Position numbers and translations under genes: made by a program. 64,000 bases of DNA, from sequence record MH159197.1. One strand, given 5' to 3'. The notes below the pieces were generated by a model that was given only the letters and a program-made list of their open reading frames with translations, searched no databases and was not told where the DNA came from. This document shows, piece by piece, positions 10,547 through 50,835 of this stretch (positions within the stretch are counted from its first letter, which is position 1; every line of letters starts with the position of its first letter). This stretch comes from Staphylococcus phage VB_SavM_JYL01.

Positions 10547-10705
10547 TTGTATCTCTCCTTTTAAATATGTAAAGTATATAGCTAGTATCGTATCCTAGGA
10601 ACAAACACTTGCGCTATATACTCAATGAAACTCTACCCTCATTCGAGGACACAGCAAACCGATTCGTCAACCGCACATGTGAATTCTCAAGTTTCATTTA
10701 TGTAA

Positions 10706-10777
10706 CACACCCTCTTTGATTTGCACAAAGACTAAGGGTTTTGGAGACCCTTGTACTACTAATTATACTAAGGGTGT
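10706..10777 (-). tRNA. tRNA-Trp (anticodon CCA)
   Basis: Hand-folded cloverleaf. Acceptor ACACCCT/AGGGTGT, anticodon stem AGGGT/ACCCT, loop CTCCAAA. D- and T-loops are slightly non-canonical. Confidence 0.6.
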
Positions 10778-10783
10778 TTATTA

Positions 10784-10856
10784 TGGTTTCTATTGGATTT
10801 GAACCAATGACACCTAGAGCTTCAATCTAGTGCTCTACCATCTGAGCTAAGAAACC
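10784..10856 (-). tRNA. tRNA-Phe (anticodon GAA)
   Basis: Acceptor GGTTTCT/AGAAACC, D-stem GCTC/GAGC, anticodon stem CTAGA/TCTAG, loop TTGAAGC, T-arm ATTGG-TTCAAAT-CCAAT. Confidence 0.8.
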
Positions 10857-10862
10857 TTGTAA

Positions 10863-10936
10863 CGACTCATACGAGACTCGAACTCGTACTCTCTGCCGTG
10901 ACAGGGCAGTGTGTTAACCAGTTACACCAATGAGCC
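10863..10936 (-). tRNA. tRNA-Asp (anticodon GTC)
   Basis: Acceptor GGCTCAT/ATGAGTC, anticodon stem CTGCC/GGCAG, loop CTGTCAC, T-arm ACGAG-TTCGAGT-CTCGT. Confidence 0.8.
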
Positions 10937-11067
10937 AAAATAAATGCTATACCCTAACCTTACCTTAATGTATAGCAGGTTTTCATATAAGCTCGAAGCA
11001 ACGATTATTACCACTCATAACAACTATATATTAAGTGAAAGGAGGTGAAATGAACAAAACGTGGTAA

Positions 11068-11096
11068 TTGGTACTTATATAGGAAGTATGTATAAT
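11068..11096 (+). promoter_or_regulatory. plus-strand promoter-like element (TTGGTA-17-TATAAT) at the 5' edge of a long hairpin
   Basis: TTGGTA, then cttatataggaagtatg (17 nt), then TATAAT (11090-11095). Confidence 0.4.
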
Positions 11097-11184
11097 CTAC
11101 AAGGAGTAAGTTATTGGTTCATAAAGGAGTGTGAACAATAAATACATGAAAGAGTGAAAGTCTACTCCTTGTAGATTCTTTTTT
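11094..11184 (+). ncRNA. candidate small structured RNA / large-loop terminator
   Basis: Perfect 15-bp inverted repeat: aatctacaaggagta (11094-11108) pairs with tactccttgtagatt (11163-11177). The 54-nt loop has its own gttca/tgaac stem, and a T6 run follows (11179-11184). Confidence 0.4.
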
Positions 11185-11189
11185 AATTA

Positions 11190-11850
11190 TCAATCAAAGG
11201 AGGAAACTGATAATTGTTAATAATAAACTATAAAGAGGAAAATATTTATAGTCACATTCTGATATAATGCAACTAAATATCCAAGCATAACCCGTCTCAC
11301 GAGGAACCTACCTATAAGACCTGTTATTAAGTGAATCACTACGATTGACTCTATTAAGGAGCTACCTTAAGTCCATCTCACGCAATTTAAAAGGGACTTA
11401 CAAACCGTATAACGATAGTAAGTTTATTAAATAATGTGATATTAACATATTAGTTAATAACTTTCACATGGTCGAAGAAAAGTAAATTTATTTGATTTCC
11501 AAATTATTTTTATCAAATATAGCTTCTTTTGAACCTGTAGATTTATGCTACTCATACTAATAACCTCTATTATCTAACACATTTCTGTGCTCCAACTACA
11601 GTTAGTCGTTACAGCGTATCTTTCTAGGATTCCGCTAAGACCCTAGAAAGAAATTAAACCCTAGCCGTTATCATACTCTACAGACCTTATAAGTAAGTAC
11701 CAAGTATACCAATCGTATTTAACAATACTAATGACGACCCATCCTACCGATATATTTCCGATAGGTTTTGATTCGTTTGATTATCTTGTACCTTATGACT
11801 ACCAAATCATTATTCAGTCACTATGCTCAGATATTTAGTTGTATTATTAT
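11190..11850 (-). ncRNA. ORF-free ~0.66-kb transcribed leader downstream of two consensus promoters; candidate structured ncRNA or pseudo-tRNA region
   Basis: No ORF longer than ~20 codons on either strand despite non-extreme composition. It has many local hairpins, for example tctttctagg/cctagaaaga at ~11621-11655. It is continuous with the tRNA cluster on the same strand. Confidence 0.35.
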
Positions 11851-11856
11851 ATATTA

Positions 11857-11885
11857 ATTATAACATAATTTTTAGTACTTGTCAA
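11857..11885 (-). promoter_or_regulatory. perfect sigma-A consensus promoter (TTGACA-17-TATAAT), leftward
   Basis: Minus strand: TTGACA (11880-11885), 17-nt spacer, TATAAT (11857-11862). Confidence 0.65.
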
Positions 11886-12033
11886 GTTAATTTTAAAAAA
11901 AATTATAGAAGTAAGATAAAATTCTTACTTCCAATTAAAATTATAAGGATGATACACATTGTTATTGTTTAAACTGGAAAACAATGTAAGAAAAAACAGT
12001 GATGTGTAAGGTATTTGTTTTATTGTTAATTAC

Positions 12034-12062
12034 ATTATAGCATATACTGATACCTTTGTCAA
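12034..12062 (-). promoter_or_regulatory. perfect sigma-A consensus promoter (TTGACA-17-TATAAT), leftward
   Basis: Minus strand: TTGACA (12057-12062), 17-nt spacer, TATAAT (12034-12039). Shares the ttgtcaagttaattt context with the 11857 promoter. Confidence 0.65.
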
Positions 12063-12088
12063 GTTAATTTAATACTTTTTTTAAAATA

Positions 12089-12307
12089 TTAGTTATCTTT
12101 TGTTAGTTCTTCCTGAATAGCATCCCATCTTCTTTCTGCTTCACTACGATTATCTTCTATATGTTTTGTAGTTTTACAACATTTGATACAGTATATATCT
12201 TTGATATGACCTTCTTCTCTTTTATTTGCTCTTTTTCTTGGTACTTTGAATACATTACCACATTCTTTACATATTAAACTTGAGTAAAACATTTTTTGTC
12301 TTTTCAT
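12089..12307 (-). CDS. small zinc-ribbon protein (CxxC...CxxCC), 72 aa
   Basis: LICKECGNVFKV ... YCIKCCKTTKH. Confidence 0.55.
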   Translation of the reverse strand: MKRQKMFYSSLICKECGNVFKVPRKRANKREEGHIKDIYCIKCCKTTKHIEDNRSEAERRWDAIQEELTKDN

Positions 12308-12410
12308 AATTAATCAATTCCTTTTCTTGTTTTATTTGATAATTTAACTATATACTATATTGATAAATAAGTCAACAGTTTTCTAAAAATAATTTAAATT
12401 ATTTTGAAGA

Positions 12411-12541
12411 ATCCTTTAATACCAAGGGTTACAAGAGAAAAAGTACGTATTTAGAAAATAAGGAGTACTCCTATTATATATAATTATATTCTGATATAAG
12501 TAATTAATAATATTAAATATATAATTATAATTAATAAGGTT
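12411..12541. repeat. direct repeat unit 1 (~131 bp)
   Basis: Three conserved blocks: atcctttaRTAYCA; then aaaagtacgtatttagaaaataaggaNNNctcctattata; then aaatatataattataattaataaggtt. Contains the perfect palindrome GGAGTACTCC (12462-12471). Confidence 0.7.
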
Positions 12542-12600
12542 GGGAAAATTGAATTAAATATAATCTGATACTTGGTAAAACTACTCAATATAGAAGTAAA

Positions 12601-12732
12601 ATCCTTTAGTATCAGTACTTACAGACAAAAAAGTACGTATTTAGAAAATAAGGAACTCTCCTATTATAGTTATATATACTTATTAATTATTATTAATTAC
12701 TATCTAAATATATAATTATAATTAATAAGGTT
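12601..12732. repeat. direct repeat unit 2 (~132 bp), ~85% identical to unit 1
   Basis: Same three conserved blocks with a divergent AT-rich middle. Unit-to-unit spacing ~190 bp. Confidence 0.7.
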
Positions 12733-12787
12733 AGAGAGTCAACAAAAAGACAAATAAAAAAGTGACTACTTAAAGTCACTTGTTAAT

Positions 12788-12997
12788 TTAAAAAACTATT
12801 TTAAATGATTCAATCATTCTTGGGTTAATATAAATTAAACTAGAACTAGCATCTTCAGTTGTATTAACTTTTATTGATGCTGAATCAGAACCACTAATCA
12901 TATAGTCTATATCTTTTCTAGTGTAACCCTTTTCGTCAGATGATACTAAAAAATATTTAGCACCACTTAACATTGTTATTTCAATATGTTTTGACAT
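12788..12997 (-). CDS. hypothetical protein (69 aa)
   Basis: ORF track. Confidence 0.5.
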   Translation of the reverse strand: MSKHIEITMLSGAKYFLVSSDEKGYTRKDIDYMISGSDSASIKVNTTEDASSSLIYINPRMIESFKIVF

Positions 12998-13354: not shown

Positions 13355-13681
13355 CTAAGGTCTAACCGTTTCAGATTCAGAATGGATATCATAATTTTCT
13401 AAGAAATCATTGATAATCTCCATATAATTATCCGTAACGACTTTTCCGTAAGATGTTTTTGTATCAATTTCAAACCTAAGCTTACCAAAACTTTGGAGGT
13501 CTAATTCTTTTATTACAATATTAGGGTCATCAGAAGGAAGGTAATAATAGTCGAAGTATATAATTGAGCCATTTATTAATACTCTGTCTATTCTATAGAC
13601 GTGGAAATAGCGTCTGTCTCTTTTAAAATGGGCTAGTGCATCTTTAAACTCTAACTTAAGGATATCCTTATATTTAGTCAA
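13355..13681 (-). CDS. hypothetical protein (108 aa)
   Basis: ORF track. Confidence 0.5.
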   Translation of the reverse strand: MTKYKDILKLEFKDALAHFKRDRRYFHVYRIDRVLINGSIIYFDYYYLPSDDPNIVIKELDLQSFGKLRFEIDTKTSYGKVVTDNYMEIINDFLENYDIHSESETVRP

Positions 13682-13713
13682 AGTGGTAACCTCCTTACTA
13701 TTAATTTTTAAAT

Positions 13714-13980
13714 TTACTTATTTTGTGGTATAATAGTTATGATAAAGGCAGTTATTATAATTATATTAAGAATAATGATAATAATTATTTTTTCTGAGAA
13801 AATAAGCCAAATACTAAAAACAGATAAAGCATAGATAGCTGATAGATATACTATATTAAGAGTTACCTTACTTTTATCTTCTTTATAGATAGAATAACCT
13901 AAAGACGTTGTAACACCACTAAGTATAAAATAATAGAAACAAAAAAGAGGTATAGACAGAAAAAAAGATACGATAATCAT
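13714..13980 (-). CDS. small very hydrophobic membrane protein (88 aa, ~3 TM)
   Basis: ORF track; Ile/Leu-rich. Confidence 0.5.
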   Translation of the reverse strand: MIIVSFFLSIPLFCFYYFILSGVTTSLGYSIYKEDKSKVTLNIVYLSAIYALSVFSIWLIFSEKIIIIIILNIIIITAFIITIIPQNK

Positions 13981-37500: not shown

Positions 37501-38611
37501 TGTTGGTGAAAAAGTCGGAGACATGGCTAAGAAGGCTAACACTAAAGAAGGATGGAACCTAGGATGGACTAATGGAGATAAAGACGGTAAGAATAAATTC
37601 CAAGATTCTTTATTAGGAAAACCTATATCTAAAGCATGGAGCGGTATAACAGGTCTCTTTGATAATGACGCTGAAGCATCTGAAGAAGATAGCAAAGATA
37701 AGAAAAAAGGCGTTAAAGGTGTTAAAGGAGATACTAAGAAGAAAGAAAAAATGACAGCAGAACAACTTAGAGAAAAGAATAACCAATCTGAAACTAAGAA
37801 TCTTAAAATCTATAGTGATTTACTTGATAGGGCTCAGAAAATTATTGAGAGTGCTAAAGGTATTAATATAGATGGAGGAACTTCTGATAGTGGTTCTGAT
37901 AGCGGAGGCTCTGCATCTGATGTAGGTGGAGAAGGCGCAGAGAAAATGTATAAGTTCCTTAAAGGAAAAGGACTATCTGACAATCAGGTAGGAGCTGTTA
38001 TGGGGAACTTACAACAAGAATCTAATCTTGACCCTAATGCTAAGAATGCCTCTAGTGGTGCATTTGGTATTGCTCAGTGGTTAGGGGCTAGAAAAACAGG
38101 ATTAGAAAACTTTGCTAAATCTAAAGGTAAAAAATCTAGTGACATGGATGTTCAATTAGATTACCTATGGAAAGAGATGCAGTCTGATTATGAAAGTAAT
38201 AATCTTAAAAATGCCGGATGGAGTAAAGGCGGAAGCTTAGAACAGAATACAAAAGCATTTGCTACCGGATTTGAACGTATGGGAGCAAACGAGGCTATGA
38301 TGGGTACTCGTGTTAACAATGCTAAAGAATTCAAGAAGAAATACGGAGGCTCCGGTGGCGGAGGAGGTGGAGGAGCTCTATCCTCTACTTACCAAGAAGC
38401 TATGAGTAACCCTGTATTAACTACTGGTTCTAACTATAAAGGCTCTAATGATGCTTCTAATGCTTCTACAACTAATAGAATAACAGTTAATGTTAACGTT
38501 CAAGGTGGAAATAATCCTGAAGAAACTGGAGACATTATCGGAGGAAGAATTAGAGAAGTTCTAGACAGCAACATGGATATTTTTGCAAATGAACATAAGA
38601 GAAGTTACTAG
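34553..38611 (+). CDS. tail tape-measure protein with Gly-rich linker and C-terminal lysozyme-like (lytic transglycosylase) domain
   Basis: 1352 aa. Gly-rich blocks GGSPKGGGSPKGGG and GGGGGGG. C-terminal LQQESNLDPNAKNASSGAFGIAQW resembles phage tail lysozyme / SLT motifs. Confidence 0.85.
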   Translation: MMAMNDDYRLVLSGDSSDLENSLKAIELYMDSLESKNIDAPLDNFLKKLKVIAKEVKNVQNSMDKQEGKSVISSKDMDESIKSTQSATKNINELKKALDDLQKENISKGIAPDPEVEKAYAKMGKVVDETQEKLEKMSSQKIGSDASIQNRIKEMKTLNQVTEEYNKISKDSSATKDYTKRLRANRNMTRGYMERSEGTGRLTYDQGARVRSELGKIGSYESQRKQNQRNLGQAREQYSNYRNQQQDLTKRRASGQINKAQYEQELASIKQEMKAREELISNYEKLGAELDKTVQYYKGSVQKDFQSRDVDQQRGTFGRMVQERLPSIGSHAMMGTTAMATGLYMKGASLSETNRPMVTSLGQNSDNMDIDSVRNAYGDLSIDNKLGYNSTDMLKMATSYEASVGHKSDEDTMAGTKQLAIGGRSLGIKDQEAYQESMGQIMHTGGVNSDNMKEMQDAFLGGIKQSGMVGRQDEQLKALGSIAEQSGEGRTLTKDQMSNLTAMQSTFAESGSKGLQGEQGANAINSIDQGLKNGMNSSYARIAMGWGTQYQGLEGGYDLQKRMDEGISNPENLTDMADMATQMGGSEKEQKYLFNRSMKEIGANLTMEQSDEIFKDAQSGKLSKEELAKKAKKMEKEGKKEGEDNATDYKESKSGKNDQNKSKTDDKAEDTYDMAQPLRDAHSALAGLPAPIYLAIGAIGAFTASLIASASQFGAGHLIGKGAKGLRNKFGRNKGGSSGGNPMAGGMPTGGGSPKGGGSPKGGGTRSTGGKILDSAKGLGGFLVGGAGWKGMFGGESKGKGFKQTSKEAWSGTRKVFNRDNGRKAMDKSKDIAKGTGSGLKDIYNDSIFGKERRQNLGDKAKGFGGKAKGLYGKFADKFGDGGKNGILSQSPKAGGSGLGKLGKLAGGLGKGAGVLGVATSALSLIPALASGDSKAIGGGIGSMGGGMAGASAGASIGALFGGVGAIPGALIGGAIGSFGGGAVGEKVGDMAKKANTKEGWNLGWTNGDKDGKNKFQDSLLGKPISKAWSGITGLFDNDAEASEEDSKDKKKGVKGVKGDTKKKEKMTAEQLREKNNQSETKNLKIYSDLLDRAQKIIESAKGINIDGGTSDSGSDSGGSASDVGGEGAEKMYKFLKGKGLSDNQVGAVMGNLQQESNLDPNAKNASSGAFGIAQWLGARKTGLENFAKSKGKKSSDMDVQLDYLWKEMQSDYESNNLKNAGWSKGGSLEQNTKAFATGFERMGANEAMMGTRVNNAKEFKKKYGGSGGGGGGGALSSTYQEAMSNPVLTTGSNYKGSNDASNASTTNRITVNVNVQGGNNPEETGDIIGGRIREVLDSNMDIFANEHKRSY

Positions 38612-47769: not shown

Positions 47770-50700
47770 GTGGCTAATTTTTTAAAGAATCTTCATCCAT
47801 TATTAAGAAGAGATAGAAATAAAAAAGATAATCAAGACCCTAACTTTGCTCTGATAGATGCACTCAATGAAGAGATGAATCAAGTAGAGAAAGATGCTAT
47901 AGAAAGCAAGTTACAATCTTCTCTAAAGACAGCAACGAGTGAATATTTAGACAAATTTGGAGATTGGTTTGGGGTTTATAGAAAGACCGATGAAAAAGAT
48001 GATGTTTATAGAGCAAGAATTATAAAATACTTACTCTTGAAAAGAGGAACTAACAATGCTATAATAGATGCTATAAGAGATTATTTAGGTAAGGATGATA
48101 TTGATGTAAGCGTGTATGAACCCTTTACCAATATTTTCTATACTAACAAATCATACTTAAATGGTGAAGACCATTTAATGGGATACTATTATAGATTTGC
48201 TGTTATAAATGTTTCTATAGGTGACTATTTCCCTATAGAGATTATAGATGTAATTAACGAATTTAAACCTGCAGGTGTAACATTATATGTTACTTATGAT
48301 GGAGCTTCTACTATCAGAGGTGGAGCAATTATTAAGTGGTTAGATGGACTACCTAAAATTGAAACATATCAAGAGTTTGATAGGTTTACAGGTTATGATG
48401 ATACATTTTATGGTCATATTAATATGAATCAAAGTAAAGATACTGATAATAGTTCATCAGACATTTTTAAAACAAATCATAGTTTAATTAATAGTTTAGA
48501 TGTTTTAACAGGTTCCTCTAGTGTAGGTAGACAATATGTTAACTATGGATATGTAACATCATATGTTTATAATCCAGGTATGACATCTTCTGTAAACCAA
48601 ATAAGTGCTAGTACAGAAGGTAGAGGTCAGGAAGTACCTACTGATTATTATATGTATACTAGTACCAAGAATAATAATACAGTAGAACTTAATATGCAAA
48701 CTACTTCCGGTGTATCTTATCTCTATAATAACTTTAATTTTAGAGATTATATGAGTAAGTATAGACCTCAAGTAGATTTACAATCTGATGAGGCTAGAAG
48801 AATTGTATCTGATTATATAAAAGAATTAAGTATTGATTATTATCTCAGTGCTGTTATACCTCCTGACGAAAGTATAGAAATTAAATTACAAGTTTATGAC
48901 TTTTCTATTAATAGATGGCTTACAGTATCAATTAGTAACTTATCTTTCTATGAAAAAAATATTGGTAGCAATATAGGTTATATAAAAGATTATTTAAATA
49001 GTGAATTAAATATGTTTACTAGATTAGAGATAAATGCAGGTAAAAGAGACTCAGTAGATATTAAAGTTAACTATCTAGATTTAATGTTTTATTACTATGA
49101 ACGAGGAATTTACACAATAAAACCTTATAAAGCATTAGTAGAAAATTACTTAGATATATCTAGAGAGACTTATGTAGAGGCGTTTAAAATAGCATCATTA
49201 TTGAATGGAGACATTATAACTAAAACAGGTTTCCAACCTATAGGATACTTAAAATTAGTTGGTAGTTATGAGAATACAAGACCTAGCGCAGTAAACATAG
49301 TAGCTAAAGATACAGATAATAATCCTATAGAATCTACTGAGTTAGATGTGTATAGTACAATAGAAAACAGGAATCTATTACAGTCTTATAAAGGTGTAAA
49401 TAATATAGCTAGAGAAATAACATCTACGGAAGAGTTTACCGTATCAGGATGGGCTAAAGAGATATATTCAACTAATTATTTGTCTAAAGTACTAAAACCA
49501 GGTAAAGTATACACTTTATCTTTCGATATGGAAATAACAAATAATGACCTGACTCTTAAATCTTATTCTGATAATCATGGTATATATTTATACAGTAATA
49601 CCAAAGGAATTGTTGTTAATGGTGTTAAATCTATGGAGCGCACCGTAGGTAACAAAGTATCTATAACTCAGACTTTTACAGCACCTACTATTACCGACCA
49701 CAGGTTATTAATTTATACTGGAAGATATACATCTGATGGGAAAGCATCAACCCCTCCAGTGTTCTTTAATACAGTTAAAATTACTGAACTAAAATTATCT
49801 GAAGGTGACTCTAAATTAGCTTACTCACCTGCCCCTGAAGATAAACCTAATGTAATAGAAAAAGGAATTCAATTTAATAATATCAAAACTAATATACAGA
49901 CTTTAAATATCAATTCAGATATTAATCTAAAGAATGTAACTTTATACTATTCTTACTATGGTGATAGTTGGGTAGAATTAAAAACTATAGGTAATATTAG
50001 TACAGGAGAAACAACAGAAACTAATAATTTAATAGATTTATATGGATTACAGACAGTAGATTACTCTAACATAAATCCAATGTCAAAAGTATCATTACGT
50101 TCTATTTGGAATGTTAAATTAGGTGAACTTAATAATCAAGAAGGTTCTTTATCTAATATGCCTAATGATTATTTTAATGCTGTATGGCAAGACATAGATA
50201 AACTATCAGATATTGATTTAGGTTCTATGAGAATGGTCAAAGACACTGAAGGTGGAGTATTTGATGGAGCTACAGGTGAAATTATTAAGGCTACTTTATT
50301 TAACGTTGGTGTTTATACTGATTTAGATATGTTAGCTTATACTTTGACTAATTACACTGAACCATTAACTTTAGGTTCTAGTAGATTGATAAGTGAGCTA
50401 AAAGAAGAATTACTAACATCAGAATCATTTAATGTTGATAATAGAATTAAAGTAATTGACTCAATCTCTGAGCAATTACCTAATAATAATATATTGAGTA
50501 ACTCTTATCAAACACAAACGATTACACAGAATGGATTTGCTAAATATAATTTGAAAGAACCTATAGAACAAAGAAAACAATACAACCTAAGAATACATGG
50601 AGATTTTAAAGAAGGACTAGAAAGATTAGCTATAGGTAATTCTAATGGGTCATTTAATGAAGTATTTGTTTATCCTGAAAATATTAAAGATGGTATAGTA

Positions 50701-50835
50701 GATATTACTTATACTTCTAGAGATGATAATTATGCAGAAGGAAAACAAAGACTTAATAATGATTATAGAGTTTATGCTCAACCATATGATAGTGGTGTAG
50801 TTACAATTTACAGTCTAGAGTTAATAAAAGTTTAA
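47770..50835 (+). CDS. large baseplate/tail-fiber structural protein (1021 aa, GTG start)
   Basis: Position and size. Confidence 0.6.
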   Translation: MANFLKNLHPLLRRDRNKKDNQDPNFALIDALNEEMNQVEKDAIESKLQSSLKTATSEYLDKFGDWFGVYRKTDEKDDVYRARIIKYLLLKRGTNNAIIDAIRDYLGKDDIDVSVYEPFTNIFYTNKSYLNGEDHLMGYYYRFAVINVSIGDYFPIEIIDVINEFKPAGVTLYVTYDGASTIRGGAIIKWLDGLPKIETYQEFDRFTGYDDTFYGHINMNQSKDTDNSSSDIFKTNHSLINSLDVLTGSSSVGRQYVNYGYVTSYVYNPGMTSSVNQISASTEGRGQEVPTDYYMYTSTKNNNTVELNMQTTSGVSYLYNNFNFRDYMSKYRPQVDLQSDEARRIVSDYIKELSIDYYLSAVIPPDESIEIKLQVYDFSINRWLTVSISNLSFYEKNIGSNIGYIKDYLNSELNMFTRLEINAGKRDSVDIKVNYLDLMFYYYERGIYTIKPYKALVENYLDISRETYVEAFKIASLLNGDIITKTGFQPIGYLKLVGSYENTRPSAVNIVAKDTDNNPIESTELDVYSTIENRNLLQSYKGVNNIAREITSTEEFTVSGWAKEIYSTNYLSKVLKPGKVYTLSFDMEITNNDLTLKSYSDNHGIYLYSNTKGIVVNGVKSMERTVGNKVSITQTFTAPTITDHRLLIYTGRYTSDGKASTPPVFFNTVKITELKLSEGDSKLAYSPAPEDKPNVIEKGIQFNNIKTNIQTLNINSDINLKNVTLYYSYYGDSWVELKTIGNISTGETTETNNLIDLYGLQTVDYSNINPMSKVSLRSIWNVKLGELNNQEGSLSNMPNDYFNAVWQDIDKLSDIDLGSMRMVKDTEGGVFDGATGEIIKATLFNVGVYTDLDMLAYTLTNYTEPLTLGSSRLISELKEELLTSESFNVDNRIKVIDSISEQLPNNNILSNSYQTQTITQNGFAKYNLKEPIEQRKQYNLRIHGDFKEGLERLAIGNSNGSFNEVFVYPENIKDGIVDITYTSRDDNYAEGKQRLNNDYRVYAQPYDSGVVTIYSLELIKV

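What the first reader, a model, noticed from the sequence alone, without database searches (positions are those of the whole stretch)
10560..11900. 1.3-kb ORF-free, hairpin-rich region containing the tRNA cluster, downstream of two perfect consensus promoters
Two perfect TTGACA-17-TATAAT promoters (12034-12062 and 11857-11885) share the core ttgtcaagttaattt and fire leftward into ~1.3 kb that has no ORF longer than ~20 codons on either strand. Composition is not unusually AT-rich, so random sequence would be expected to contain ORFs. The region holds three tRNAs (Trp, Phe, Asp) at its distal end, many local hairpins and a 15-bp perfect inverted repeat. This looks like a dedicated early non-coding transcript. 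It could be a tRNA precursor with long structured leaders, pseudo-tRNAs or regulatory RNAs, and it would be abundantly expressed early.
Basis: seen in the sequence. Interest (0 to 1): 0.7.

Follow-up and report, generated by a model that had tools for sequence, protein, structure and literature searches.

The report
Divergent ROOL RNA in staphylococcal phage
The gene-free stretch of this Staphylococcus phage K-like genome encodes a large, elaborately folded RNA of the ROOL class (RNAs that self-assemble into hollow cages and whose function is unknown), followed by a hairpin spacer and three tRNAs; it is the published but unclassified 'lncRNA2', the most abundant phage transcript in infected cells.

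Summary
The window is a Kayvirus (phage K-like, 100% identical to OPT-SA02 and SYL). The two perfect promoters, the three tRNAs, the 15-bp inverted repeat and the lack of genes are real. "No ORF above 20 codons" is not: ORFs reach 40 aa, which shuffles do not make unusual. P1 does not feed the region. It drives a short conserved element that ends at a terminator. P2 drives a ~585-nt RNA (11847-11264, minus strand) closed by a 26-bp terminal helix. This core is conserved in six Twortvirinae genera, with or without downstream tRNAs. Of 153 proposed pairs, 98 show compensatory changes, including two pseudoknots. Rfam's ROOL model matches it full length when the core is scanned alone: 30.8 bits here, 51-88 bits in homologues. 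All scores are below the 99.1-bit gathering cut-off, which explains why it goes unannotated. It coincides with 'lncRNA2' from three RNA-seq studies, none of which demonstrated ROOL homology. I conclude it is a divergent member of a known class. Function remains unknown; cage assembly is inferred. Side finds are anti-Shine-Dalgarno-like CU-rich loops in the spacer and a conserved hairpin after P1.

The parts
12034..12062 (-). Promoter P1 (TTGACA-17-TATAAT with TG extension)
   Evidence: 12/12 match. Annotated as a promoter in Sb1_8383. Conserved in Kayvirus-like, Sciuriunavirus and Sepunavirus loci.
11945..12027 (-). Conserved short RNA element downstream of P1. It is a hairpin (ACATTGTT / AACAATGT) carrying the near-invariant loop UUUUCCAGUnnAAACAAUAAC (11961-11981), preceded by CACUGUUUUUU.
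   Evidence: alignment A2; 2 covarying pairs. Single copy in the window. Present once per genome on the ROOL strand in 22 loci. In Baoshanvirus it sits about 260 nt downstream of ROOL with an unrelated, still complementary stem. No Rfam match.
11896..11933 (-). Intrinsic terminator (11-bp hairpin plus U run) that ends the P1 unit before P2
   Evidence: Annotated as a terminator at the homologous place in phage K NC_005880.2. In Stab22, PG19 and EW5 this hairpin is missing and the P1 element's own hairpin is followed by a U run.
11857..11885 (-). Promoter P2 (TTGACA-17-TATAAT with TG extension). The predicted start near 11850 is about 3 nt before the terminal helix.
   Evidence: The literature describes lncRNA2 as transcribed from its own typical early promoter (PMC7698491, PMC9241854).
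11264..11847 (-). ROOL-class RNA, the published Kayvirus 'lncRNA2' (phage K 38024-38566 maps to about window 11280-11822). The terminal helix arms are 11822-11847 and 11264-11289.
   Evidence: Rfam ROOL RF03087 matches full length at 11274-11840, 30.8 bits, E=2e-4. Homologues score 88.2, 51.3 and 60.4 bits. Covariation: 153 pairs, 98 compensatory, 95.7% paired against 78.5% in shuffles and 35-39% in slid controls. G.U cells number 272 against 38 A.C cells, which fixes the minus strand as the RNA strand, and no ORF is conserved. Model R1 finds a single copy at 11533-11675.
11536..11600 (-). Pseudoknot UGUAG (11600-11596) with CUACA (11540-11536). It spans the conserved UUGGAG + GAAA-tetraloop hairpin (motif 11570-11596) and the GUAnnAGUAGC motif.
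   Evidence: 5 pairs, 100% paired, 3 covarying. The ROOL consensus has complementary uGcc/Ggca at the same place.
11613..11636 (-). Hairpin-loop pseudoknot AGCG (11636-11633) with CGCU (11616-11613)
   Evidence: 4 pairs, 100% paired, 2 covarying; Silviavirus has GGUG/CACC. The ROOL consensus has GUGGc/gCCA at the equivalent place.
11480..11535 (-). Variable A-rich linker inside the ROOL fold
   Evidence: Alignment columns ~378-445 of A1/A3 differ freely in length and sequence. They align to the unstructured A-rich stretch of the ROOL model. ROOL has a disordered internal linker of low conservation (PMC12286853).
11354..11370 (-). Hairpin UUAAGG-UAGCU-CCUUAA with a self-complementary loop core (AGCU; UGCA in SscM-1). 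It is a candidate homotypic kissing loop.
   Evidence: 5 of 6 stem pairs covary. It aligns to GGUcGCUCC of the ROOL model. A 4-bp L15-L15'' kissing loop joins the two halves of the E. faecalis ROOL octamer (PMC12990946). Assigning this hairpin to L15 is my inference. Twort has CGCU, which is not fully palindromic.
10938..11263 (-). Spacer of five stem-loops between ROOL and the tRNAs. It includes the 15-bp perfect inverted repeat (11094-11108 / 11163-11177). Loops are CU-rich and anti-Shine-Dalgarno-like; 11048-11036 reads UCACCUCCUUUCA.
   Evidence: A4; 61 pairs, 6 covarying among close relatives; z = -4.3. CTCC|CCTC occurs 7 times against 1.2 expected, P about 6e-4. The 12/13 match to the 16S 3' tail is the best in the whole window on either strand. 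CUCCUUU loops also follow ROOL in Sepuna-, Sciuriuna-, Twort- and Baoshanvirus, but not in Silviavirus.
10706..10937 (-). tRNA-Asp(GUC) 10862-10937, tRNA-Phe(GAA) 10784-10856 and tRNA-Trp(CCA) 10706-10777
   Evidence: ARAGORN. Rfam tRNA at 64.6, 70.2 and 56.2 bits. The tRNA set varies between relatives from none to three.
10634..10651 (-). Weak terminator-like hairpin after tRNA-Trp, upstream of the small ORF and lysis genes
   Evidence: 7-bp stem, poor U run. Function not tested.

Best explanation
The ORF-free stretch is a non-coding RNA locus of a phage K-like Kayvirus. Read 5' to 3' on the minus strand, it has three units.

1. P1 drives a short conserved hairpin element that ends at an intrinsic terminator.
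2. P2 drives a ~585-nt RNA whose two ends pair in a 26-bp helix. Its interior forms about 20 covariation-supported helices, two pseudoknots, a GAAA-tetraloop hairpin and a variable A-rich linker. This RNA is a divergent member of the ROOL class and is identical to the published 'lncRNA2'.
3. The same transcript can continue through a 325-nt array of hairpins with CU-rich loops into tRNA-Asp, tRNA-Phe and tRNA-Trp.

Shown here: the homology to ROOL, the fold, the functional strand, its conservation across Twortvirinae, and its independence from the tRNAs.

Shown by others: very high abundance from 2 min onwards.

Inferred:
- The compact fold and the terminal helix make the ROOL module a stable processed species, while the flanking RNA turns over.
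- Like the solved ROOL RNAs, it self-assembles into a hexameric or octameric hollow particle.
- That particle serves the phage in a translation- or tRNA-related takeover role. This last step is the weakest; no function is known for any ROOL.
For: Identity and transcription.
- The window is 100% identical to Kayvirus genomes.
- P2 is consensus and lies directly upstream of the terminal helix.

Conservation and synteny.
- The core is conserved in Kayvirus, Silviavirus, Baoshanvirus, Sepunavirus, Sciuriunavirus and Twortvirus.
- The neighbourhood is syntenic: zinc-ribbon ORF, then the RNA, then 0-3 tRNAs, then holin and lysin.

Structure.
- The terminal helix has an entirely different sequence in Silviavirus and Baoshanvirus yet stays complementary.
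- RNAalifold predicts 138 pairs, 81 of them compensatory.
- G.U cells exceed A.C cells 272 to 38.

ROOL homology.
- Rfam ROOL hits are full length: 30.8 bits, E=2e-4 in the window; 88.2 bits, E=2e-18 in SEP1; 60.4 bits, E=1e-11 in Twort; and 51.3 bits, E=2e-9 in Remus (model 185-523 only).
- The ROOL model predicts a GCAU/AUGU helix that RNAalifold missed. In the alignment it covaries U-A to C-G in 7 versus 9 sequences.
- Both pseudoknots fall where the ROOL consensus is self-complementary.
- The two-motif signature GTACAAGTAGC-N60-90-GTGAAAGTT occurs in 85 viral contigs.

Literature.
- Abundance and timing: PMC7698491, PMC9241854, PMC11598898.
- ROOL cages, phage and tRNA context, and the disordered linker: PMC12286853, PMC12990946, PMC5737381.
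Against: - Every Rfam score is below ROOL's gathering threshold of 99.1 bits.
- The window's own hit carries a large composition correction (bias 40 bits). It was lost by the filters in the 3.5-kb and whole-window scans.
- My Twortvirinae-only model of the central domain hits only 5 of 75 putative ROOL contigs from other phages, at 29-36 bits. The lineage is therefore far from the others.
- Helices near the 3' domain (helices 17-19) are only 72-87% paired, because alignment register differs between clades.
- I did not map every helix onto the published P1-P19 scheme.
- Multimer formation, processing sites and any function are untested.
- The published RNA-seq boundaries (about 11822 to 11280) fall inside the terminal helix rather than at its ends. 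That could mean cleavage within the helix, or simply coverage fall-off.
Confidence: 0.85

Rival explanations
1. It is a lineage-specific large structured RNA of Twortvirinae that is unrelated to ROOL. On this view the Rfam match reflects AT-rich composition plus a few short shared motifs.
For: All scores are below the gathering threshold. The window hit is only 30.8 bits with a 40-bit bias correction. R1 barely recognises other phages' candidate ROOLs.
Against: The matches are full length (model 1-574) on the correct strand in three genera, with E down to 2e-18. Independent covariation confirms helices and pseudoknots that the ROOL model implies. Size, closing helix, A-rich linker and phage context all agree.
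Confidence: 0.07
2. It is only a long structured 5' leader or precursor spacer of the tRNA cluster, with no function apart from tRNA expression.
For: It lies on the same strand as three tRNAs, directly upstream of them, with no strong terminator between.
Against: The core is conserved in Sepuna-, Sciuriuna-, Baoshan- and Twortvirus, in LSA2311 and in EW5, none of which has a tRNA downstream. Elsewhere the tRNA set differs: Ser, Asp, or Asp+Lys. The core is far more abundant than the tRNAs in RNA-seq (PMC11598898).
Confidence: 0.03
3. The region encodes small proteins. Several GenBank records annotate 29-41-aa 'hypothetical proteins' here.
For: ORFs of 21-40 aa exist and are annotated in V1SA15 and others.
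Against: No ORF is conserved in position or length across the 16 aligned sequences. Substitutions are compensatory for RNA pairing rather than codon-like. The longest ORF is shorter than in most shuffles.
Confidence: 0.02
4. It is a DNA-level element, such as part of the replication origin, a packaging site or a protein-binding array, and not a functional RNA.
For: It lies next to the AT-rich, iteron-bearing putative origin (12314-12790). It is rich in inverted repeats.
Against: Pairing tolerates G.U but not A.C (272 versus 38 cells). That is strand-specific and points to RNA. The region is the most highly transcribed of the genome, whereas the origin region is untranscribed (PMC9241854).
Confidence: 0.03

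Closest known systems
ROOL RNA (Rfam RF03087; Weinberg et al. 2017, Cousin et al. 2017; cryo-EM in Kretsch et al. 2025 and the work reviewed in PMC12990946)
   Same: - Length of about 580 nt.
- A long helix pairing the 5' and 3' ends.
- Many multistem junctions and pseudoknots.
- Shared motifs: UGAAnAA, UUGrAG + GAAA hairpin, GUAnnAGUAGC, GUGAAAGUU and GGUnGCUCC.
- A variable A-rich internal linker.
- Phage location, often beside tRNAs.
- Abundance comparable to rRNA.
   Different: - It scores 31-88 bits against the family's 99.1-bit cut-off.
- One 5'-domain hairpin of the consensus is missing, and the central-domain arm differs.
- It sits in strictly lytic ~140-kb staphylococcal myoviruses, at a fixed place upstream of the lysis genes.
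- In most genera it has no adjacent tRNA.
- Oligomerisation is untested.
GOLLD RNA
   Same: A large ornate RNA of phages and prophages, near tRNAs, induced during lytic growth, that forms cages. PMC9241854 named it as a look-alike.
   Different: No Rfam match, even at E <= 10 on the isolated core. GOLLD is larger (about 800 nt) and has a different fold.
Kayvirus 'lncRNA1' (phage K 13688-14215; outside this window)
   Same: The second very abundant ~530-nt non-coding transcript of the same phages, also beside a tRNA (Met).
   Different: - No sequence similarity to lncRNA2.
- No ROOL hit.
- Not hit by model R1.
- Its 3' part matches the DUF3800-I RNA motif at 43.4 bits against a cut-off of 44.2.
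Stable non-tRNA RNAs of the phage T4 tRNA cluster (species 1 and 2), and phi29 pRNA
   Same: These are phage-encoded stable RNAs. The T4 species are co-transcribed with tRNAs; phi29 pRNA acts as a homo-oligomeric RNA ring. This comparison rests on my own knowledge and on PMC12990946 for pRNA.
   Different: Both are much smaller and unrelated in sequence and fold. pRNA has a defined packaging role and sits on the prohead.
C-rich/CU-rich seed loops of S. aureus regulatory RNAs (RNAIII, RsaE and others), which pair with Shine-Dalgarno sequences
   Same: The spacer hairpins present CUCCUUU / CCUCC in loops, and one 12/13 copy of the 16S 3' tail. From my own knowledge, this is how staphylococcal sRNAs present anti-SD seeds.
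   Different: No target is known. The motif could instead be a by-product of other constraints. It lies outside the abundant 543-nt species. It is absent in Silviavirus.

Membership tests
ROOL RNA (RF03087) | Covariance-model score at or above Rfam's gathering threshold (99.1 bits) | tested here: not met
   Window 30.8 bits. Homologues: SEP1 88.2, Twort 60.4, Remus 51.3 bits. There is no hit in the gathering-mode scan of the window.
ROOL RNA (RF03087) | Statistically significant, full-length similarity to the ROOL model on the transcribed strand | tested here: met
   Model positions 1-574 of 574 are matched. E=2e-4 (window), 2e-18 (SEP1), 1e-11 (Twort). Remus gives a local match at E=2e-9. These sequences are mutually alignable and syntenic.
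ROOL RNA (RF03087) | Long terminal helix (P1) pairing the 5' and 3' ends | tested here: met
   The arms are 26 nt each, 11822-11847 and 11264-11289. The counted structure has 25 pairs in this helix, 13 with compensatory changes and 98% of cells paired. The helix is replaced wholesale in Silviavirus and Baoshanvirus.
ROOL RNA (RF03087) | Ornate fold with several multistem junctions and pseudoknots, supported by covariation | tested here: met
   22 helices, 153 pairs, 98 compensatory; two pseudoknots are 100% paired. The helices coincide with the structure line of the ROOL alignment. One-to-one mapping to the published P1-P19 was not completed.
ROOL RNA (RF03087) | Family sequence signatures (GUAnnAGUAGC, GUGAAAGUU, UUGrAG + GAAA hairpin, GGUnGCUCC) | tested here: met
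   They are aligned to the model consensus, and invariant in A3. The first two motifs at ROOL spacing occur in 85 viral contigs.
ROOL RNA (RF03087) | Poorly conserved internal linker | tested here: met
   Columns ~378-445 of A3 vary in length and sequence and are A-rich. They align to the model's unstructured A-rich insert.
ROOL RNA (RF03087) | Phage or prophage context, often beside tRNAs; very high cellular abundance | tested here: met
   The host genome is a lytic phage. Three tRNAs lie 325 nt downstream, although many relatives have none. Abundance comes from the literature only (PMC7698491, PMC9241854, PMC11598898).
ROOL RNA (RF03087) | Self-assembly into a homo-hexameric or homo-octameric cage | not testable with these tools
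   There is only an indirect hint: a conserved hairpin whose loop core is self-complementary (AGCU; UGCA in SscM-1), placed like the L15 kissing loop (PMC12990946).
GOLLD RNA | Match to the GOLLD covariance model | tested here: not met
   No GOLLD hit at E <= 10 on the isolated core, nor on the homologues.
tRNA-like or pseudo-tRNA elements in the leader | Cloverleaf detectable by ARAGORN or the Rfam tRNA model outside the three annotated tRNAs | tested here: not met
   Only the three tRNAs are found, even at E <= 10.

The most novel reading that the evidence does not exclude
The locus is a phage translation-takeover module. A ROOL cage RNA is made in ribosome-like amounts. It is physically linked to an array of hairpins whose loops mimic the anti-Shine-Dalgarno tail of 16S rRNA (one copy is 12/13 identical), and to phage tRNAs. 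The CU-rich loops, the cage, or both would capture or mask Shine-Dalgarno regions of mRNAs, or a factor that recognises the 16S 3' end. Candidate targets are host messages, or the holin and lysin messages immediately downstream. That would give ROOL its first function.
Probability: 0.1. Interest if true: 0.85.

Novelty: new member of a known kind. Interest (0 to 1): 0.55.

Why it matters
ROOL and GOLLD are among the largest bacterial and phage RNAs without a known function. Their cage structures were solved in 2025, but there is no good biological system for them.

This work places a ROOL RNA in the best-studied therapeutic staphylococcal phages: K, 812, ISP, Sb-1, Twort, SEP1 and Remus. Three time-resolved transcriptomes already exist for these phages. 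A host rpoC mutant study exists, and CRISPR-Cas9 editing of phage K has been published (PMC12442396). That makes ROOL function directly testable by deletion, point mutation and pull-down in a lytic infection.

It also explains an unexplained observation in those transcriptomes, namely which RNA makes up the largest share of phage reads. It shows that Rfam's threshold misses a whole ROOL lineage present in about 325 deposited phage genomes. It matters as well for the safety and engineering dossiers of phage-therapy products.

Tried and rejected
1. lncRNA1 as a paralogue of lncRNA2. There is no blastn similarity, no ROOL hit and no R1 hit. Rejected.
2. Pseudo-tRNAs or other Rfam families in the leader. 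None at E <= 10.
3. Coding potential. Rejected.
4. My first scan for other ORF-poor stretches in the window was a script artefact, because open-ended runs were not counted. For example, 47770-50835 is a 1021-aa ORF. It was redone.
5. Motif scan of 185,579 bacterial and archaeal genomes with GTTGGAGNNNNGAAANNNNTTNGATAA. It returned 18 hits in unrelated taxa, about the number I estimate by chance, and none was confirmed by R1. Five non-Twortvirinae IMG/VR hits were likewise unconfirmed.
6. Searching for covariation between loop L2 and a later loop that would support the intermolecular L2-L13' contact. This was inconclusive by eye and not pursued.
7. Tool alignment of the P1 hairpin element including the Baoshanvirus copies. 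MAFFT could not register the different stem lengths, so the outer-stem replacement is seen only by eye.
8. The zinc-ribbon ORF 'iro' (12089-12307) upstream. It gives only weak sub-threshold Pfam zinc-ribbon hits. The RefSeq label 'ribosome associated inhibitor A' is not supported by that search.
Full report
**What the window is.** The interval 10560-12100 is 100% identical to Staphylococcus phages OPT-SA02 and SYL. It is 96-98% identical to phage K, 812, ISP and about 200 other Kayvirus genomes. In annotated relatives the neighbourhood on the minus strand reads: small membrane and hypothetical genes, a putative origin with iterons, a 72-aa zinc-ribbon ORF ('iro', intergenic region ORF), the non-coding stretch, three tRNAs, a 61-aa ORF, holin, and endolysin.

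**Checking the observation.**
- Both promoters are perfect TTGACA-17-TATAAT sites with a TG extension, and they share the stated 15-mer.
- ARAGORN and Rfam confirm tRNA-Trp, tRNA-Phe and tRNA-Asp, and nothing else tRNA-like even at E <= 10.
- The 15-bp perfect inverted repeat is at 11094-11108 / 11163-11177.
- The claim of no ORF above ~20 codons is wrong, since ORFs reach 40 aa.
- Dinucleotide shuffles of the region give a longest ORF of 57 +/- 14 codons, with 8% at or below 40. ORF absence is therefore not significant against random sequence.
- ORF absence is striking against the genome. 10595-12091 is the longest stretch of the window without a 60-codon stop-free run, at 1497 nt against 477 nt for the runner-up.
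- Folding energies are well below shuffles, with z = -6.5 for 11264-11847 and z = -4.3 for 10938-11263.
- An intrinsic terminator (11933-11906 plus U run, annotated in phage K) separates P1 from P2. Only P2 feeds the long non-coding region.

**What was already known.** Three RNA-seq studies of kayviruses report this region as 'lncRNA2' (also called lnc001/002).
- It spans 525-543 nt on the minus strand and has its own typical early promoter.
- It accounts for 8.4% of counts in one study.
- It has the highest read number of the genome in another.
- Together with lncRNA1 it makes up 27% of reads in the third.
- It is detectable at 2 min and rises about 45-fold by 30 min.
- The downstream tRNAs are much less abundant, with no evident terminator between (PMC7698491, PMC9241854, PMC11598898).

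Function is unknown in all three studies. PMC9241854 says the lncRNAs 'resemble GOLLD and ROOL' by location and abundance. A 2023 review paraphrases this as sequence similarity without analysis. I found no paper that demonstrates homology. Phage K coordinates 38024-38566 map to about window 11280-11822.

**A discrete, closed module.** Distant BLAST shows that only ~540-560 nt of the region is conserved beyond Kayvirus. That core is found in Silviavirus, Baoshanvirus, Sepunavirus, Sciuriunavirus and Twortvirus, about 325 phage records in all, every one a staphylococcal Twortvirinae.

The conserved core is bounded by a 26-bp helix, with arms at 11822-11847 and 11264-11289. The helix starts about 3 nt after the predicted P2 start. 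In Silviavirus and Baoshanvirus its sequence is entirely different yet still complementary.

The downstream tRNAs are not conserved with the core:
- none in Sepuna-, Sciuriuna-, Baoshanvirus, LSA2311 or EW5;
- Ser in Remus;
- Asp in Stab22 and PG18;
- Asp plus Lys in PG19;
- Asp, Phe and Trp here.

So the core is not a tRNA leader.

**Structure.**
- A 14-sequence alignment (A1) gives an RNAalifold consensus of 138 pairs, 81 with compensatory changes.
- After adding Twort and one metagenomic relative (A3), I removed three weak helices. I then added five helices and two pseudoknots suggested by covariation and by the ROOL model.
- The result is 153 pairs, 98 with changes on both sides. 95.7% of cells are paired, against 78.5% in shuffles (0 of 500 reach it) and 35-39% when partners are slid by 1-3 columns.
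- G.U cells outnumber A.C cells 272 to 38. This fixes the minus strand as the functional RNA strand and argues against a DNA element.
- No ORF is conserved.
- The fold also contains a GAAA-tetraloop hairpin and a ~55-nt A-rich linker of free sequence (11480-11535).
- Only some kayviruses carry an optional extra hairpin at about 11394-11431.

**Identity.**
- A 3.5-kb Rfam scan and a whole-window gathering scan found only the tRNAs.
- Scanning the core alone, which relaxes the filters, gave ROOL (RF03087) over the whole model (1-574) at 11274-11840 on the minus strand: 30.8 bits, E=2e-4.
- The homologous cores score higher: SEP1 88.2 bits (E=2e-18, full length), Twort 60.4 bits (E=1e-11, full length) and Remus 51.3 bits (E=2e-9, model 185-523).
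- All are below the 99.1-bit gathering score, which is why no pipeline annotates them.
- The model's structure line coincides with my independently derived helices.
- The model also predicted a helix (GCAU/AUGU) that RNAalifold had missed. That helix covaries U-A to C-G in 7 versus 9 sequences.
- Both pseudoknots fall where the ROOL consensus is itself complementary.
- The two-motif signature GTACAAGTAGC-N60-90-GTGAAAGTT occurs in 85 viral contigs. I estimate about six by chance.
- A covariance model built only from Twortvirinae central domains (R1) finds one copy in the window, at 11533-11675. It finds none in the lncRNA1 locus or in chance motif hits. It recognises only 5 of 75 of those other contigs, at 29-36 bits.

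I conclude that this is a real but distant ROOL lineage.

**How it probably works.** ROOL RNAs average 581 nt, occur in phages and prophages often near tRNAs, and can be as abundant as 16S rRNA. In vitro they assemble without protein into hexameric or octameric hollow cages, held together by kissing loops and A-minor contacts. A disordered linker faces the interior. No function is known (PMC5737381, PMC5643018, PMC12286853, PMC12990946).

By homology I infer that the Kayvirus RNA folds the same way. I also infer that it accumulates because the closed, compact fold resists turnover while the flanks are degraded.

One conserved hairpin (11354-11370) has a self-complementary loop core: AGCU, UGCA in SscM-1, and the extended UAGCUA in SEP1. 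Its position is like that of the L15-L15'' kissing loop that joins the two halves of the E. faecalis octamer. This is a hint only, and Twort's CGCU weakens it. Assembly and function are untested.

**The rest of the region.**
- The 325-nt spacer (10938-11263) folds into five stem-loops, including the 15-bp repeat.
- On the RNA strand its loops are CU-rich. CTCC/CCTC occurs 7 times against 1.2 expected (P about 6e-4).
- 11048-11036 reads UCACCUCCUUUCA. This is 12 of 13 identical to the 3' tail of Firmicute 16S rRNA as I recall it, and CCUCC is confirmed as the S. aureus anti-SD core in PMC13009471. It is the best match in the whole window on either strand.
- Similar CUCCUUU loops follow ROOL in four other genera but not in Silviavirus. 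Their meaning is unknown. I list an anti-SD or translation role only as the novel case.

P1 drives a ~80-nt element with a near-invariant loop, UUUUCCAGUnnAAACAAUAAC. It is single copy and always lies on the ROOL strand. It is upstream of ROOL in three genera and downstream in Baoshanvirus, where its stem has a different sequence. In Sepunavirus there is no P2, so ROOL appears to be transcribed through this element.

**Verdict.** The transcript is already published as an abundant RNA of unknown nature. What is new here is the evidence that it is a divergent ROOL-class RNA conserved throughout Twortvirinae. That makes it a new member of a known kind, with practical value as a tractable system for an RNA class whose function is still open.

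Noticed in passing
window 10938-11263 (minus strand), especially 11036-11048: Hairpin loops of the ROOL-tRNA spacer are CU-rich and anti-Shine-Dalgarno-like. One copy (UCACCUCCUUUCA) is 12/13 identical to the 16S rRNA 3' tail, the best match in the window on either strand. On the plus strand the same sites read as strong SD sequences followed only by 3-17-codon mini-ORFs. Similar loops follow ROOL in Sepuna-, Sciuriuna-, Twort- and Baoshanvirus.
   Followed up: partly
window 11945-12027 (minus strand); loop motif 11961-11981: A short, very conserved hairpin element lies behind promoter P1 (loop UUUUCCAGUnnAAACAAUAAC, preceded by CACUGUUUUUU). It is single copy, always on the ROOL strand, and relocated downstream of ROOL in Baoshanvirus with a different stem. 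No Rfam family matches, and I did not find it among the small RNAs listed in the phage K RNA-seq paper.
   Followed up: partly
L005 633-769 minus strand (phage K NC_005880.2, about 13632-13768; outside the window): The 3' part of the other abundant Kayvirus non-coding RNA, lncRNA1, matches the DUF3800-I RNA motif at 43.4 bits, just under its 44.2-bit gathering score (E=3e-5). lncRNA1 shows no similarity to lncRNA2 or ROOL.
   Followed up: partly
window 12314-12790: This is the second-longest ORF-free stretch of the window (477 nt). It corresponds to the AT-rich iteron region annotated in phage Sb1 and to the only untranscribed locus of phage K, proposed as the replication origin (PMC9241854).
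   Followed up: no
window 12089-12307 (minus strand): The 72-aa 'iro' ORF immediately upstream of P1 keeps this position next to ROOL in Kay-, Silvia-, Sepuna- and Sciuriunavirus. RefSeq calls it 'ribosome associated inhibitor A; zinc finger domain'. Pfam gives only sub-threshold zinc-ribbon hits, so it could be tested as an RNA partner.
   Followed up: partly
L007 2013-3301 (phage Remus): In Silviavirus Remus the ROOL 3' helix is followed within a few bases by tRNA-Ser and then a 369-aa 'transposase' gene. The sister phage LSA2311 has neither. The ROOL 3' flank therefore looks like an insertion hot spot for tRNAs and mobile elements.
   Followed up: no
L025 2332-2586 (IMG/VR contig, Baoshanvirus-like): A match above the gathering score to 'Staphylococcus sRNA 808' (RF02897, 80.2 bits) lies about 4 kb from the ROOL copy on a phage contig. 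The present window has no such match.
   Followed up: no
window 11394-11431 (minus strand): An extra hairpin inside the ROOL 3' domain is present in this phage, K, Stab22 and PG19, and in a different form in Silviavirus. It is cleanly absent in PG18, EW5, Baoshan-, Sepuna-, Sciuriuna- and Twortvirus. It is a natural variable site that could tolerate engineering.
   Followed up: no
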